Of a DNA stretch of 63,801 bases, positions 42,261 through 51,609 are shown piece by piece. Made by a program: the position numbers and the translations under genes. A model generated the notes under the pieces. The model searched no databases. It worked only from the letters and a program-made list of their open reading frames with translations, and was not told the DNA's origin. The DNA comes from a virus (taxonomy: Duplodnaviria; Caudoviricetes): positions 1 through 63,801 of the IMG/VR virus record IMGVR_UViG_3300012953_000028; one strand, written 5' to 3'. Position 1 is the first letter of the stretch. Every line of letters begins with the position of its first letter.

Positions 42261-44026
42261 TTGTATTTAAAAACATAACCATAAAAAACTTTATGAGTGT
42301 AGGAAATGTTACACAGGCATTAAATTTAAGTAACGATGGCCTTACTCTTGTATTAGGAAATAACTTAGATTTAGGTGGCGACGGAGCAAGAAATGGTGTT
42401 GGTAAAACAACTATTGTTAATGCACTAAGTTTTGCTTTATACGGAGATGCTTTAACTACAATTCGTAAACAAAACCTAATCAACAAAACTAATGGCAAGA
42501 ATATGCTTGTTACATTAGAGTTTGAAAAGAACGGCGAAACTTTTAAAATTGAACGTGGCCGTAGTCCTAATGTTTTACATTTTTACATTAATAATAACCA
42601 AGTAGAAGAAAAAACAGATGAAGGGCAAGGAGAGAATAGAGTTACACAGAAAGAAATAGATAGGCTCATTGGTATGGGAAAAGAGATGTTTAAGCATCTT
42701 GTAGCCTTAAACACTTACACTCAGCCTTTCTTAGCATTAAGAGCAAACGATCAAAGAGAAATTATTGAAGAACTACTTGGCATTACTCAACTTAGTGAGA
42801 AAGCAGATATTTTAAAAGAAGGCATTAGAAACACTAAAGAATTAATTAAAGATGAGGAATCTAGACATAGGGCTTTAGAAGAAAGTAATGCTAGGGTTAA
42901 ATCAACTATTGACGATTTAAAACGTCGAAGCAGAACTTGGAATAAAAAGAAAGACGAAGATTTAACTAATATTTTAGCTGGTATAACAGAACTAGAGTCT
43001 ACAGATATTGATGCAGAGTTACAATCTCATAGAGATTTAGAAGTCTTTAAAGAAAACGATAATCGCCTAAAGTTAGCCAATAAAGAACTAGCTACAAGAC
43101 AAGGTAATATCAATAAACTTAAAGAATCTCTTACATTATCTGAGTCTAATCTAGTGTCGTTAGAAGAAAATAAGTGTCATACATGCGGACAAGATATACA
43201 AGACGAAAAACAACAAACTTTATTAACAGATGCTAATAAATTATTAGTCCAAATTAAAGATGCGTTAAAAGAAGAACACGGGCTTCTTGCCCAATCAGAT
43301 ATTGCTGTTCGAGACATTGGAGATATGGGTACTCGTCCTATAACAAAATATCCTAGTATTGAAGAAGCAATTAAACACCAAAGCAACTTAGAAAATTTAA
43401 AAGGTACTTTGGTTACTAAAGAGGAAGAAGAAGATCCTTATCAAGAGCAAATTGAAACTCTTGAAACAACTGCTCTTGCAGAAATTTCATGGGAGAACAT
43501 GAACGAGTATACAAAACTACAAGAGCACCAAGAATTCTTGCTTAAATTACTAACAAATAAAGACTCATTTGTCCGTAAACGCATTATCGAGCAGAATTTA
43601 GCATACTTAAACCATAGGTTAGGGTATTACTTAGATAAATTACAACTACCACATGAAGTGGAGTTTAAGAGCGACTTAGAGGTTGATATTACTCAATTAG
43701 GTCAAACATTTGACTTTGATAATTTGAGTAGAGGAGAACGTAACAGGTTAATCCTAGCACTAAGTTGGAGTTTTAGAGACGTTTATGAAAGTTTCACTGA
43801 ACCAATGAATTTACTGTTTATTGACGAACTTGTAGATTCAGGCATGGACCAAGTTGGTATTGAGTTATCAATGTCAGTCTTAAAGAAAATGGGCCGTGAA
43901 ATGAAACGTAACGTCTTTTTAATCAGCCATCGAGACGAACTCGCTGGTCGTGTAAACAACGTACTGATGGTTGTTAAGCAAAACGGTTTTACTATGCTTG
44001 ATAACTCTACAGAAATTATTTTATAA
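42257..44026 (+). CDS. gp46/Rad50/SbcC recombination ATPase
   Basis: Walker A NGVGKTT, zinc hook CHTC, signature LSRGE, Walker B LFIDE, ISH. Confidence 0.96.
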   Translation: MIVFKNITIKNFMSVGNVTQALNLSNDGLTLVLGNNLDLGGDGARNGVGKTTIVNALSFALYGDALTTIRKQNLINKTNGKNMLVTLEFEKNGETFKIERGRSPNVLHFYINNNQVEEKTDEGQGENRVTQKEIDRLIGMGKEMFKHLVALNTYTQPFLALRANDQREIIEELLGITQLSEKADILKEGIRNTKELIKDEESRHRALEESNARVKSTIDDLKRRSRTWNKKKDEDLTNILAGITELESTDIDAELQSHRDLEVFKENDNRLKLANKELATRQGNINKLKESLTLSESNLVSLEENKCHTCGQDIQDEKQQTLLTDANKLLVQIKDALKEEHGLLAQSDIAVRDIGDMGTRPITKYPSIEEAIKHQSNLENLKGTLVTKEEEEDPYQEQIETLETTALAEISWENMNEYTKLQEHQEFLLKLLTNKDSFVRKRIIEQNLAYLNHRLGYYLDKLQLPHEVEFKSDLEVDITQLGQTFDFDNLSRGERNRLILALSWSFRDVYESFTEPMNLLFIDELVDSGMDQVGIELSMSVLKKMGREMKRNVFLISHRDELAGRVNNVLMVVKQNGFTMLDNSTEIIL

Positions 44027-44036
44027 GGAGAATAAA

Positions 44037-44240
44037 ATGGCAGATCCAAGAGATCCAAGAGATTCAGCTCATCATTTAGCATTAATGGAAAACATGGATG
44101 CATATATTGCTGAGAATAGAAAGTTCGTGGAAAAAGGTGTAAAGGCTAGTGCAACTAGAGCTCGTAAAGCTCTACAAAATATTGCCGTTGCTGTAAAAGA
44201 AAGACGTAAAGAAATTACAGAAGAGAAAAATGCACTTTAA
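44037..44240 (+). CDS. Histone H1-like (Hc1-type) small DNA-binding protein
   Basis: KF..KG.KASATRARKALQ.I....KE.RKEI; AAGGAG SD places the start at 44037. Confidence 0.7.
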   Translation: MADPRDPRDSAHHLALMENMDAYIAENRKFVEKGVKASATRARKALQNIAVAVKERRKEITEEKNAL

Positions 44241-44752
44241 TGCCAAGTAAAAGTAAAACTAAAGGATCAGGGTTTGAAAGAGAGGTTGCTACACATCTCT
44301 CTGAAATCTACAACGAAAGTTTTGTTCGAGTTCCAAACTCAGGAGCATTTGTTGGTGGAATGAATCAAACCCGTAAAAGCTATCTAAGTGAAGAACAAAT
44401 TAGAGGTTTTAAAGGAGATATTATTCCTGGTCCTAGTTTTCCTTTACTAGTATTTGAATGCAAATTCTACGCAGATTTTCCTTTTCATCAATTACTACAA
44501 AATACGGACGTACTAATACTTGATGATTGGATAAATCAAACTATAGACTGTATGGATGAAGGTGACTTAGGACTTCTATGTATGAAGTTTAATAGAAAAG
44601 GTCGCTATATTGCATACGAAGATAAGTTTAAATTTGAAACAACTAGATTTATAAACTACAAAAACTGGCTCATTACTGACTACGATTCTTTTTGGGAATT
44701 GAATGTCGACAAAGTAAAAACATACTCAAAACTCACAGAGACCATCTCTTAG
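44240..44752 (+). CDS. Holliday junction resolvase (PD-(D/E)xK)
   Basis: SK.KG..FEREVA..L, R.P.SGA, GDI, ECK. Confidence 0.85.
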   Translation: MPSKSKTKGSGFEREVATHLSEIYNESFVRVPNSGAFVGGMNQTRKSYLSEEQIRGFKGDIIPGPSFPLLVFECKFYADFPFHQLLQNTDVLILDDWINQTIDCMDEGDLGLLCMKFNRKGRYIAYEDKFKFETTRFINYKNWLITDYDSFWELNVDKVKTYSKLTETIS

Positions 44753-44779
44753 AAACATTGGCAAACTATCTACTGACAG

Positions 44780-45165
44780 GTTAGTGCAAGCCGGTTATAT
44801 TGCACCCATAAAATCTGGACCAGCGAGGGTTGCAGAGGACGGAATTTCTGAGCAGTAGCAGAGACATAACATCACTATCCTTAACAGGACGTAGGTCAAA
44901 CAGCATGAAACTGGCCTGATGTATGTATAGTATTGCTAAAATGAGTAGGCTCTGGTGAACCATTACAACCTACATAACAATAGAATTGGTTTGGTTCGGT
45001 TCTATATGTTTGCGTTATTACAGTCTAGTGTAAAAGGGTACCGCGTAACCGCCCTAACAGAAATGTTGCTTTAACCAAAGTGTGGTAGAGGTCTGTGTCA
45101 AGACAACCATTTATCTTAGCCCCTAAACGGGGCTAAGTGTGGATAGTTAATCTATGTCAAGCTGA
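44780..45165 (+). ncRNA. Candidate large structured non-coding RNA (family not recognised)
   Basis: ORF-free; about 42% GC by hand count over 44761-45120 versus about 22% just downstream; at least 10 helices, G-U pairs and a GAAA loop favouring the + strand; a possible pseudoknot. Confidence 0.65.
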
Positions 45166-45263
45166 AGTTAAAAATATTAAAGTTATTACTTACATTATGT
45201 AAACCATTTGTTATCGTTTGAAATATAAAAATGAATGAGTAGAGCAAAGCGATACGATATTCA

Positions 45264-45282
45264 AGGACGAAGTATTCGTCCT
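45264..45282. terminator. Hairpin between convergent transcription units
   Basis: AGGACGAA-GTA-TTCGTCCT, 8-bp stem; no strong U-tract. Confidence 0.4.
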
Positions 45283-45319
45283 ATAGCTGATTCTTAACAA
45301 TGTTAATGAGTACTTCTGA

Positions 45320-45547
45320 CTAACGCATCTGATTAGCAATACCCTTTTTACCGTACATTGTGTCTAACTTTTCTTTGACAACTTCTGCCATGATTTTTCT
45401 ATCAGTATACGGCATATCCCAAACAACTTGTATTGGGTTACTACTCCACACACTTAAATTGCATATGTCTTGGGTTAGGGCTCTTGCGTCAGTTTCAAAA
45501 CTTTCGATATACTTTGTAATCTTATTTGAATCAGTTCCTAGACTCAA
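45320..45547 (-). CDS. Tail assembly chaperone C-terminal (lambda T-like / gp51-like) frame, probably reached by -1 frameshift
   Basis: TTG start with no SD; W.MP..DR motif; open in the -1 frame back through the T8 run. Confidence 0.65.
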   Translation of the reverse strand: MSLGTDSNKITKYIESFETDARALTQDICNLSVWSSNPIQVVWDMPYTDRKIMAEVVKEKLDTMYGKKGIANQMR

Positions 45548-51224: not shown

Positions 51225-51241
51225 AAGGAATAAGTAAAGTT

Positions 51242-51448
51242 ATGAGATTTAATGACTTAACAAGAATACAAGACGAAATTGAAGAAGAAATCGATCCTGA
51301 TGTAGCATTCTATTCCGATATGCGTAGACACCGTATGACTTTAGAGCATGTTAATAGATTGCGTAAACTTCGTGAATTAAGAAAATACGAGCAAAAAACT
51401 AGGTTAGAAGCAATTACCAAAATGTATGCTCGACCCCCTGCTGTTTAA
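51242..51448 (+). CDS. Small prohead core-associated protein
   Basis: 68 aa between portal and core genes; R..R.TL...N.LRK. Confidence 0.65.
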   Translation: MRFNDLTRIQDEIEEEIDPDVAFYSDMRRHRMTLEHVNRLRKLRELRKYEQKTRLEAITKMYARPPAV

Positions 51449-51609
51449 CAGTATTCTTTTAAAATATTAAATTTTTATTAAATTTTACCCGTTTTGCGGA
51501 AATTGTGCCAAAAAGTACAGTTTTTACCGCATAACTCCTGTTTTTCCGTGCGTCATTAGTAAGTAGTTATTGGTGAATACCCGCCTTTCGCGATAAGGAG
51601 AAAAAGAAT

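What the first reader, a model, noticed from the sequence alone, without database searches (positions are those of the whole stretch)
44780..45165. Candidate undescribed large ornate ncRNA between the Holliday resolvase and the tail chaperone locus
Seen: this 567-nt gap is by far the largest in an otherwise packed window. Its first part is about 42% GC (hand count, 44761-45120) versus about 22% at 45181-45240. Local hairpins: GTGCAA/TTGCAC (44784-44805); CAGAG/TTCTG (44833-44850); GTAGG..TGG-TGAA-CCA..CCTAC (44945-44973); ATAGAATTG/CGGTTCTAT with two U-G pairs; TTACA/TGTAA; AGGG/CCCT; AACA-GAAA-TGTT (GNRA loop); TGGT..GTCT/AGAC..ACCA; and a perfect CTTAGCCCC/GGGGCTAAG (45115-45137). A multibranch domain is closed by TAGCA/TGCTA and ACATCA/TGATGT and contains TCCT-TAAC-AGGA and AGGTCA/TGGCCT. 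The loop TTTGGTT (44990-44996) is complementary to AACCAAA (45073-45079), suggesting a pseudoknot. GGTTGC (44828-44833) can pair with GTAACC (45045-45050). Wobble pairs indicate the + strand. Inference: a ribozyme-sized or scaffold RNA comparable in complexity to phage GOLLD/ROOL RNAs, but I do not recognise it as a tRNA, tmRNA, RNase P or group I/II intron.
Basis: partly seen in the sequence, partly recalled or inferred. Interest (0 to 1): 0.88.

Follow-up and report, generated by a model that had tools for sequence, protein, structure and literature searches.

The report
Large two-domain phage RNA, half known
The gap holds a real, roughly 390-base folded RNA of a T4-like jumbo phage: its first third is a catalogued orphan RNA motif, and the rest is a conserved, double-pseudoknotted domain that no catalogue I could search describes.

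Summary
The ORF-free gap at 44753-45319 is the largest in the window. About 44770-45163 (+ strand) is a conserved, non-coding, strongly covarying RNA.

- **Known part.** 44779-44926 is a full-length match to Rfam RF01718, the Polynucleobacter-1 RNA (87.6 bits against a cut-off of 37).
- **Undescribed part.** 44927-45163 lies outside that 141-position model and matches no Rfam family. It follows the 5' motif in all 53 unique viral sequences and in the 12 bacterial loci that are not chimeric.
- **Independent occurrence.** The 3' part also occurs in about 20 further T4-like phage contigs whose 5' parts RF01718 does not detect.
- **Structure.** Covariation supports helices P5, P6, P8, P9 and P11 and two pseudoknots.
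- **Setting.** The RNA always follows a small endonuclease gene in the gp47-gp46 recombination module. In this clade the next gene is convergent, so it is not a 5' leader here.
- **Function.** Unknown. My best reading is a stable, trans-acting folded RNA.
- **Verdict.** New variant of a known kind, moderately high interest.

The parts
44770..44776 (+). Conserved 5' edge motif CTACTGA. It starts 18 nt after the stop codon of the upstream endonuclease gene (stop at 44750-44752).
   Evidence: ACTGA is invariant in 50 of 50 unique sequences. Conservation rises at 44762-44781. The motif is also present in the bacterial copies.
44779..44926 (+). 5' domain, the Polynucleobacter-1 RNA motif (RF01718). 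Helices: P1 44784-88:44801-05; P2 44815-21:44828-35; P3 44847-50:44859-62; P4 44864-67+44870-73:44918-21+44923-26; P4a 44878-81:44886-89; P4b 44893-97:44913-17.
   Evidence: cmscan 87.6 bits, cut-off 37, model positions 1-141 of 141. Compensatory changes in P1, P3, P4, P4a and P4b in the RNAalifold fold of 50 sequences.
44927..44944 (+). Conserved A-rich joiner between the two domains (ends in AAAATGA).
   Evidence: Mean identity to the window 0.77-0.81 at 44922-44961; alignment A2.
44945..44973 (+). P5. Outer helix GTAGG/CCTAC (44945-49:44969-73); inner helix 44953-55:44965-67.
   Evidence: Outer helix paired in 80 of 80 sequences, 4 of 5 pairs compensatory. Inner helix 88.8% of cells paired, 3 of 3 pairs compensatory.
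44976..45010 (+). P6, a long hairpin whose apical loop (44990-44996) forms pseudoknot PK2.
   Evidence: Forms a hairpin in 80 of 80 sequences. In the model-based alignment all 8 pairs have compensatory changes, with up to 6 pair types.
45014..45018 (+). PK1 5' strand GTTAT, which pairs with GTAAC (45045-45049) inside the P8 loop. This is an H-type pseudoknot.
   Evidence: 97.7% of cells paired. Pair types UA 58 / CG 21 and AU 64 / UA 9 / GU 5.
45035..45055 (+). P8 hairpin AGGGT/GCCCT. Its near-invariant loop ACNGCRTRACC holds the PK1 3' strand.
   Evidence: 95.5% of cells paired; GC 52 / AU 27 at the second pair. ACCGCC is invariant in 80 of 80 sequences.
45056..45067 (+). P9, a short hairpin with a GAAA loop (AACA-GAAA-TGTT).
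   Evidence: The segment folds as a hairpin in 76 of 80 sequences, across 46 distinct segment sequences with many different stems. GNRA loops are common in the clades with the Rfam 5' domain.
45073..45079 (+). PK2 3' strand AACCAAA, which pairs with the P6 loop TTTGGTT.
   Evidence: Each sequence's own loop-joiner duplex: minimum 6, mean 8.16 nt, in 80 of 80 sequences, as 39 distinct duplexes. Cross-sequence control mean 5.06; shuffled control 5.24. On alignment A2 the 4 PK2 pairs are 89-91% paired, all with compensatory changes.
45083..45109 (+). P10, a variable two-tier hairpin (TGGT..GTCT / AGAC..ACCA).
   Evidence: A two-tier hairpin is predicted in nearly all 80 sequences, with different stem sequences. 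I did not score it on an alignment.
45115..45137 (+). P11, a perfect 9-bp hairpin CTTAGCCCC/GGGGCTAAG. No T-run follows it, so it is not a typical intrinsic terminator.
   Evidence: 97.3% of cells paired, 3 pairs with compensatory changes. The terminator scan lists nothing here.
45138..45163 (+). Conserved 3' tail (TGTGG ... ATC..GTCAAG). Conservation ends at about 45163.
   Evidence: Alignments A2. Identity to the window falls to about 0.30 at 45162-45201.
44240..44752 (+). Upstream gene: a 170-aa PDDEXK_15 / 'RusA-like resolvase' endonuclease, the last gene of the gp55-gp47-gp46 module.
   Evidence: Pfam PF24608, E 3.5e-23; PHROG 244.
45265..45281 (.). Conserved hairpin GGACGAA-GTA-TTCGTCC about 100 nt beyond the RNA. 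Probably a terminator for the convergent genes, for the RNA, or for both.
   Evidence: Conserved with compensatory stem changes across clades; identity to the window 0.71 at 45242-45261.

Best explanation
The gap encodes one + strand non-coding RNA of about 390 nt (about 44770-45163) with two domains.

- Domain 1 (44779-44926) is the catalogued Polynucleobacter-1 motif.
- Domain 2 (44927-45163) is an uncatalogued, equally conserved module. It is built from helices P5, P6, P8, P9, P10 and P11 and locked by two pseudoknots: PK1 (GTTAT with GTAAC in the P8 loop) and PK2 (P6 loop with the joiner after P9).

Shown here: sequence conservation, constant length, absence of a conserved reading frame, covariation, the strand, and the synteny.

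Inferred:
- In this clade the RNA is transcribed together with, or just behind, the small endonuclease gene that ends 18 nt upstream, and is then trimmed. In a sister clade it has its own sigma-70-type promoter.
- It acts in trans as a compact folded RNA. Most likely it is a protein-binding scaffold or decoy made early or mid infection.
- It is not a leader that controls a downstream gene.
For: - Rfam: full-length RF01718 match at 87.6 bits.
- The 3' part accompanies the 5' motif:
  - It is present at the same offset in 53 of 53 unique viral sequences that carry the 5' core pattern.
  - It is present in 12 of 13 loci from the genome collection. The 13th, L184, is an assembly chimera.
- Constant size: the element is 374-386 nt in 50 unique sequences, with all three lengths modulo 3 represented.
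- Conservation block: 44762-45160 stands against identity of about 0.3 in the flanks.
- Covariation:
  - 3' domain on 80 sequences: 94.7% of cells paired against 77.9% in shuffles; score 0.482 against 0.179 (0 of 500 shuffles reach it); slid controls 0.06-0.13; 22 of 34 pairs compensatory.
  - Model-based alignment: 92.7% against 70.0%; score 0.610 against 0.197; 17 of 21 pairs compensatory.
  - PK2: 39 distinct duplexes in 80 of 80 sequences.
- Strand: about 238 of 2703 cells are G-U wobble pairs (my sum from the table). On the - strand these would be A-C mismatches.
- Independence from the 5' domain: the 3' domain alone occurs in about 20 further unique phage loci where RF01718 is not found. 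That is 0 hits in 15 loci at the gathering score and 0 in 6 loci at E up to 5. In 11 of these 17 aligned sequences a TTGACA-N17-TATnaT promoter lies upstream.
- Not a 5' leader here: the next genes are convergent in the window and in all 8 other loci with the Rfam 5' domain that I listed.
- Transcription: contigs of two RNA libraries from two studies cover 44976-45160 and 44962-45183.
Against: - Folding energy of the single sequence is no better than shuffles: z = -0.95 for the whole, -1.85 for the 3' half, and -2.02 for the - strand.
- No transcript ends, strand or abundance are shown. The RNA-library evidence is contig-level only and may include DNA.
- No promoter is recognisable upstream in this clade. 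The scan found 4 promoter-like sites against 4.1 expected.
- Whether the two domains are one molecule after processing is not shown.
- Trans action and protein binding are inference only.
- Weinberg et al. classed the 5' motif as probably cis-regulatory.
- A same-strand gene does follow the RNA in bacteria and in the sister phage clade.
Confidence: 0.6

Rival explanations
1. Cis-regulatory leader or riboswitch-like element, the original classification of Polynucleobacter-1. The RNA would sense a signal and control the gene downstream on the same strand.
For: - The Weinberg 2010 table marks the motif cis-regulatory 'y' and switch '?'.
- In bacteria a 188-aa tyrosine recombinase gene follows on the same strand in 9 of 13 loci and in 3 of 4 further loci.
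- In the sister phage clade a 146-162-aa gene follows on the same strand.
- Unpaired nucleotides are highly conserved.
Against: - In this window and in the 8 other loci with the Rfam 5' domain that I listed, the next gene is convergent.
- In bacteria the gene starts about 450 nt after the RNA.
- No terminator or ribosome-binding-site sequestering hairpin stands at the 3' end.
- No downstream gene family is shared between the settings.
Confidence: 0.12
2. 3' UTR element of the endonuclease / recombination operon. It would be a processing, stability or autoregulatory structure acting on the upstream mRNA, for example as a binding site for the endonuclease or another module protein.
For: - The RNA starts 16-60 nt after a small endonuclease gene in every phage clade with the Rfam 5' domain that I listed.
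- There is no promoter or terminator between the gene and the RNA in the window.
Against: - The upstream gene belongs to two unrelated families: PDDEXK_15 in 3 and SegE GIY-YIG in 7 of the 10 loci examined.
- The sister clade has its own promoter between the gene and the RNA.
- The bacterial copies have a divergent gene upstream instead.
- About 390 nt with two pseudoknots is far more than known stabilisers need (my own knowledge).
Confidence: 0.15
3. A ribozyme or a self-assembling RNA. The conserved unpaired nucleotides would form an active site. Alternatively, PK2 would be an intermolecular contact that builds homo-oligomers, as reported for ROOL, GOLLD and OLE.
For: - The complexity is typical of ribozymes: two pseudoknots, GNRA and UUCG loops, invariant joiners.
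- A 6-11-nt loop-joiner complementarity that covaries would fit an intermolecular contact as well as an intramolecular one.
- Homo-oligomers of large phage-associated RNAs are reported in PMC12286853 (I saw only the abstract listing).
Against: - No similarity to any Rfam ribozyme.
- No conserved processing junction has been identified.
- Nothing here tells intermolecular from intramolecular pairing.
Confidence: 0.1
4. A DNA-level element (replication origin, packaging signal or recombination hot spot), or a small protein gene on the - strand.
For: - The - strand carries a stop-free stretch of about 60-70 codons in 44 of 50 sequences.
- The locus sits in a recombination module.
- Folding z-scores are similar on the two strands.
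Against: - The open stretches lie in different frames relative to invariant anchors, in 6 combinations, and give unrelated peptides.
- Indels of 1, 2 and 5 nt occur between clades.
- Persistent G-U pairs on the + strand and pseudoknot covariation argue for RNA.
Confidence: 0.03

Closest known systems
Polynucleobacter-1 RNA motif (Rfam RF01718; Weinberg et al. 2010, PMC2864571)
   Same: - 44779-44926 matches the whole 141-position model at 87.6 bits.
- The model's helices covary in my 50-sequence set.
- The same RNA, including the 3' part, is present in Polynucleobacter genomes.
   Different: - The conserved unit is about 2.7 times longer than the model.
- It carries an uncatalogued, double-pseudoknotted 3' domain that also occurs without a detectable RF01718 part.
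- Here it lies in a marine T4-like jumbo phage rather than in fresh-water Burkholderiales.
- It is not upstream of a gene.
GOLLD and ROOL large phage/prophage RNAs
   Same: Large, multi-helix, pseudoknotted, phage-borne RNAs of unknown function. This is from my own knowledge; from PMC12286853 I saw only the abstract listing.
   Different: - No covariance-model match.
- About 390 nt against roughly 580 and 800 nt (recalled).
- No tRNA genes anywhere in the window.
- Different phage type.
tmRNA and RNase P RNA
   Same: Similar length, and several pseudoknots (their architecture is recalled). In bacteria a tyrosine recombinase gene lies just downstream, as with integrases beside tmRNA or tRNA genes.
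   Different: - ARAGORN finds no tmRNA in the window or in 12 related loci.
- No Rfam RNase P or tmRNA hit even at E up to 10.
- Found in only 29 of 151 genomes of the genus, so it is not a housekeeping RNA.
phi29 pRNA (packaging RNA)
   Same: A phage RNA with a covarying loop-loop complementarity, which in pRNA is intermolecular (recalled, not tested here).
   Different: More than twice as long, different phage group, not beside packaging genes; no comparison was possible with these tools.
Guide or scaffold RNAs of small DNA-cutting enzymes (IscB/HEARO omega RNA, IS110 bridge RNA)
   Same: A large structured RNA sits directly beside a minimal DNA-cutting or recombining enzyme: PDDEXK, GIY-YIG, or a tyrosine recombinase consisting of the catalytic domain only.
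   Different: - Three unrelated enzyme families.
- The RNA lies downstream of the enzyme gene in phages and upstream in bacteria.
- No obviously programmable variable segment: the variable segments pair with each other.
- No HEARO hit in Rfam.

Membership tests
Polynucleobacter-1 RNA (RF01718) | Covariance-model score at or above the curated gathering score over the full model | tested here: met
   87.6 bits against 37, model positions 1-141 of 141, E 2.9e-17.
Polynucleobacter-1 RNA (RF01718) | The model's helices are kept by compensatory changes | tested here: met
   The RNAalifold fold of 50 sequences shows compensatory changes in P1, P3, P4, P4a and P4b. P2 was not recovered from the MAFFT alignment.
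Polynucleobacter-1 RNA (RF01718) | Location in a presumed 5' UTR (marked cis-regulatory 'y' in Weinberg 2010) | tested here: not met
   The next genes on this side are on the opposite strand. This is a property of the setting, not of the Rfam model.
Polynucleobacter-1 RNA (RF01718) | Taxon and habitat: Burkholderiales, fresh water or estuary | tested here: not met
   The window is a virus record with T4-like genes. The runs that hold it are labelled marine metagenome. The bacterial copies do lie in Polynucleobacter.
GOLLD / ROOL | Match to the Rfam covariance model | tested here: not met
   No match at the gathering score in the window, nor at E up to 10 in 44600-45400.
tmRNA | tRNA-like domain and tag reading frame | tested here: not met
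   ARAGORN found 0 genes in the window and in 12 related loci; no Rfam tmRNA hit.
RNase P RNA, group I and group II introns | Match to the Rfam covariance models | tested here: not met
   No such match at E up to 10.
Intrinsic terminator (for the P11 hairpin) | GC-rich hairpin followed by a T-run | tested here: not met
   The terminator scan lists nothing at 45115-45145. The only site it found is on the - strand at 44961-44948.
RNA guide of a nuclease or recombinase (omega RNA or bridge RNA type) | A variable, target-matching guide segment, and a fixed protein partner family | tested here: inconclusive
   The neighbouring enzymes belong to three unrelated families. The most variable RNA segments pair with each other. 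I did not attempt a target search.

The most novel reading that the evidence does not exclude
The RNA is the shared RNA subunit of a new kind of RNA-protein machine for DNA transactions. It would work with whichever minimal DNA-cutting or recombining enzyme is encoded beside it:
- PDDEXK or GIY-YIG endonucleases of only 142-181 aa in jumbo phages;
- a 188-aa tyrosine recombinase with only the catalytic domain, plus DUF6641, in a Polynucleobacter cassette.

The RNA would supply the substrate recognition or assembly that these enzymes lack. A variant of this reading is that PK2 is intermolecular and the RNA self-assembles as ROOL and GOLLD do.
Probability: 0.1. Interest if true: 0.9.

Novelty: new variant of a known kind. 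Interest (0 to 1): 0.62.

Why it matters
- **Rarity.** By my own knowledge, bacterial and phage RNAs longer than about 300 nt with intricate, covariation-proven tertiary folds are few, and each has pointed to unusual biochemistry: RNase P, tmRNA, group I/II introns, the HEARO omega RNA, OLE, ROOL, GOLLD.
- **A re-reading of a known orphan.** Polynucleobacter-1 has stood since 2010 as a 141-nt orphan motif thought to be cis-regulatory. It now appears to be only the front third of a two-domain, double-pseudoknotted RNA of about 390 nt or more.
- **Distribution.** The RNA is a syntenic fixture of the recombination module of uncultured aquatic T4-like jumbo phages. It recurs in about a fifth of the sampled Polynucleobacter species, in a cassette with a tyrosine recombinase.
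- **What this enables.** A better covariance model could be built, and there is a cultivable host (Polynucleobacter) in which to test function.
- **Caveat.** If the function proves mundane, the result is still a correction to the catalogued family.

Tried and rejected
- **Single-sequence folding.** z-scores are weak on both strands, so they do not help for or against.
- **blastn of the RNA, or of the whole locus, against 50,697 phage records.** No match.
- **Cultured relatives.**
  - The closest cultured relatives by gp46 are Phosso, PA5oct and Atu_ph07, at 44-47% identity.
  - PA5oct and Phosso have poorly coding gaps of 1-1.5 kb beside their resolvase genes.
  - nhmmer, Rfam and model R1 find nothing significant there; the best R1 hit has E 0.58, inside a gene.
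  - A 10-nt identity to the core motif in PA5oct may be chance.
  - The four published PA5oct ncRNAs lie elsewhere in that genome (PMC7318152, passages read).
- **5'-3' closing helix.** The best duplex between each sequence's own 5' leader and 3' tail averages 5.86 nt, against 5.36 in the cross-sequence control. No signal.
- **- strand ORF.** Rejected.
- **DUF6641 and Phage_integrase in the window.** None found. The DUF6641 control rang nowhere, so that blank is weak.
- **Defence and naming libraries.** PADLOC and NCBIfam on the neighbours gave nothing informative beyond the tyrosine recombinase hit.
- **RNA libraries.**
  - X16 and X18 show no contig over the flanking genes, and X15 and X17 show none over most of the RNA.
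  - Contig cover cannot show absence, so I make nothing of these blanks.
  - mafft-qinsi failed because MXSCARNA is missing.
- **Literature.**
  - The term 'Polynucleobacter-1' is held by one paper only in the library.
  - Three further searches found no description of the longer RNA.
  - Supplements were closed for Weinberg 2010 and for the IMG/VR candidate-RNA catalogue (PMC10690425, candidates of 29-151 nt, passages read). They may hold notes on the motif or fragments of the 3' domain.
Full report
**The observation.** The stretch 44753-45319 (567 nt) is the largest part of the window free of ORFs of 75 aa or more. The next largest is 385 nt.

**What the catalogues say.**
- A scan of the whole window against Rfam 15 gave one match at the gathering score: RF01718, the Polynucleobacter-1 RNA, at 44779-44926 on the + strand. 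It scores 87.6 bits against a cut-off of 37, with E 2.9e-17, over model positions 1-141 of 141.
- A permissive scan of 44600-45400 (E up to 10) added only two chance-level hits outside the element, and nothing on 44927-45165.
- ARAGORN found no tRNA or tmRNA in the window.
- The motif comes from Weinberg et al. 2010 (PMC2864571). I saw only the table passage. It lists the motif as a probable RNA, probably cis-regulatory, switch unknown, from Burkholderiales and fresh water or estuary. It is the only paper in the library that holds the motif's name.

**Folding energy.** Taken alone it is uninformative. The z-score is -0.95 for 44775-45150, -1.85 for the 3' half on the + strand and -2.02 on the - strand.

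**Relatives.**
- A core pattern from the 5' motif found 76 stretches in viral contigs and 13 in the genome collection.
- Of the viral stretches plus the window, 69 had 410 nt available, which gave 53 unique sequences. The 224 nt that lie 3' of the Rfam match (44927-45150) matched 53 of 53 at the same offset.
- A conservation profile shows one block from about 44762 to 45160. The part beyond the Rfam model is at least as conserved as the part inside it. Identity falls to about 0.3 on both sides.
- The element is 374-386 nt long in 50 unique sequences, with all three lengths modulo 3 represented.
- A stop-free stretch on the - strand in 44 of 50 sequences lies in different frames relative to invariant anchors and gives unrelated peptides. 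It is not a gene.

**Structure of the 5' domain.** RNAalifold on the 50 sequences gave 51 pairs, 30 of them with compensatory changes. They include the Rfam helices P1, P3, P4, P4a and P4b.

**Structure of the 3' domain.**
- I aligned 80 unique sequences (alignment A2) and counted a hand-drawn structure of 34 pairs:

| Measure | Observed | Shuffled | Slid by 1-3 columns |
|---|---|---|---|
| Cells forming a standard pair | 94.7% | 77.9% | 34-51% |
| Covariation score | 0.482 | 0.179 (0 of 500 shuffles reach it) | 0.06-0.13 |
| Pairs with compensatory changes | 22 of 34 | | |

- A covariance model of 44938-45057 (R1) found all 80 loci at 66-126 bits. The model-fitted alignment gave 92.7% paired against 70.0%, a score of 0.610 against 0.197, and 17 of 21 pairs compensatory. 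Such an alignment leans towards the model.
- The helices are P5 (44945-73), P6 (44976-45010), P8 (45035-55), P9 (45056-67), P10 (45083-45109, variable) and P11 (45115-37).
- Pseudoknot PK1 pairs 45014-18 with 45045-49 inside the P8 loop.
  - In 80 of 80 sequences the loop has a 6-11-nt complement in its own joiner (mean 8.16 nt).
  - These make 39 different duplex sequences.
  - Loops tested against other sequences' joiners average 5.06 nt, and against shuffled joiners 5.24 nt.
- About 238 of 2703 cells are G-U pairs (my sum), which fixes the + strand.

**The 3' domain is a module of its own.**
- A profile of the whole element found about 20 further unique phage loci that match only its 3' half.
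- Rfam finds no RF01718 in them: 0 hits in 15 loci at the gathering score and 0 in 6 loci at E up to 5.
- Their 5' parts are conserved among themselves. In 11 of 17 aligned sequences a TTGACA-N17-TATnaT promoter stands about 300 nt before the 3' domain. This argues for a separate RNA gene. By eye, parts of that 5' region resemble the P4 junction of the Rfam motif. I did not test this.

**Setting.**
- The window is a fragment of a virus record, with a CheckV completeness estimate of 19%.
- It carries T4-type genes:
  - gp55 late sigma factor, MazG, gp47 and gp46;
  - an Hc1-like protein and a 170-aa PDDEXK_15 / 'RusA-like' endonuclease, followed by the RNA;
  - then convergent genes including a gp26-like baseplate hub, and further on a tape-measure-like protein and the gp20 portal.
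- The closest cultured phages by gp46 are the jumbo myoviruses Phosso, PA5oct and Atu_ph07, at 44-47% identity. None of 50,697 phage records matches the RNA by blastn, and model R1 finds nothing in the syntenic gaps of PA5oct and Phosso.
- Every phage clade shows gp47, gp46, a small endonuclease, then the RNA.
- The endonuclease is PDDEXK_15 in the window and 2 other loci, and a SegE-type GIY-YIG domain in 7 loci.
- In this window's clade the next genes are convergent, so the RNA cannot be a 5' leader here.

**Bacterial copies.**
- All 10 scanned loci from the genome collection have RF01718 at 89-104 bits, and they also carry the 3' domain. The one apparent exception, L184, is an assembly chimera.
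- They share a cassette:
  - a DUF6641 gene, divergent from the RNA;
  - the RNA;
  - about 450 nt further on, a 188-aa tyrosine recombinase that consists of the catalytic domain only.
- Model R1 finds the RNA in 29 of 151 sampled genomes of that genus, with up to 3 copies in one genome. It finds it in 5 of 151 sampled genomes of the order, two of which are from the genus. The RNA is therefore accessory, not housekeeping.

**Expression.** Among the public runs that hold the stretch, a contig of an rRNA-depleted RNA library covers 44976-45160. A contig of an oligo-dT RNA library from another study covers 44962-45183, with 5 differences. This shows presence in RNA libraries only. It does not show ends, strand or level.

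**Reading.**
- Shown: a conserved, non-coding, + strand RNA of about 390 nt with two domains and two pseudoknots, fixed in a recombination-gene module.
- Inferred: it is one transcript, made with or behind the endonuclease gene in this clade, and it acts in trans as a compact folded RNA, most likely bound by protein.
- Rivals:
  - a cis-acting leader, which fits the bacterial and sister-clade settings but not this one;
  - a 3' UTR element of the upstream operon;
  - a ribozyme or self-assembling RNA;
  - a DNA element or small ORF, which I consider rejected.
- Its placement beside three unrelated minimal DNA-cutting enzymes may mean partnership. More soberly, it may mean that mobile or interchangeable nuclease and recombinase genes settle beside a highly conserved RNA gene, as integrases do beside tRNA and tmRNA genes (my own knowledge).

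**Verdict.**
- The claim of an undescribed RNA holds only for the 3' two-thirds and for the unit as a whole.
- I rate it a new variant of a known kind.
- I could not see the supplements of Weinberg 2010 or of the IMG/VR candidate-RNA catalogue (PMC10690425, candidates of 29-151 nt). They may bear on how new the 3' domain is.

Noticed in passing
window 51225-51609: Second-largest ORF-free gap (385 nt), between the gp20 portal gene and the next gene. No Rfam match at the gathering score.
   Followed up: no
window 43971-44240: An 89-aa ORF with a chlamydial-type histone H1-like Hc1 domain (PF07432, E 2.9e-11) and a weak PADLOC PD-T7-4 hit. It overlaps the end of gp46 and sits just before the endonuclease gene.
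   Followed up: no
window 44240-44752; L010:7601-8029, L093:10280-10705 and others: The small endonuclease gene directly upstream of the RNA is PDDEXK_15 in some clades and a SegE-type GIY-YIG domain in others, at the same position. This looks like non-orthologous replacement.
   Followed up: partly
L194:2287-4299 and L182-L200: A conserved bacterial cassette: a divergent DUF6641 gene, the RNA, then a 188-aa tyrosine recombinase with only the catalytic domain. There are up to 3 RNA copies in one Polynucleobacter genome, two of them 18 kb apart.
   Followed up: partly
L195:8017-9531 (PA5oct) and L196:8410-9425 (Phosso): Cultured jumbo relatives have gaps of 1-1.5 kb beside their resolvase genes, holding only tiny annotated ORFs or none. 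No detectable homologue of this RNA is there. PA5oct has a 10-nt identity to the core motif that may be chance.
   Followed up: partly
window 45265-45281: A hairpin (GGACGAA-GTA-TTCGTCC) about 100 nt past the RNA, conserved with compensatory stem changes across clades. Probably a terminator between the convergent transcription units.
   Followed up: partly
L093, L130, L150 and relatives, about 300 nt upstream of the 3' domain: A near-consensus sigma-70 promoter (TTGACA, 17 nt, TATnaT) in 11 of 17 aligned sequences of the sister clade. It is followed by an A-rich 5' region that RF01718 does not detect.
   Followed up: partly
L184 (1320-nt contig of a MAG): Assembly chimera: AT-rich phage sequence carrying the 5' motif is joined abruptly to GC-rich sequence. 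Several MAG labels among the hits (Nitrospira, Erythrobacter, Cryomorphaceae) may be binning errors.
   Followed up: partly
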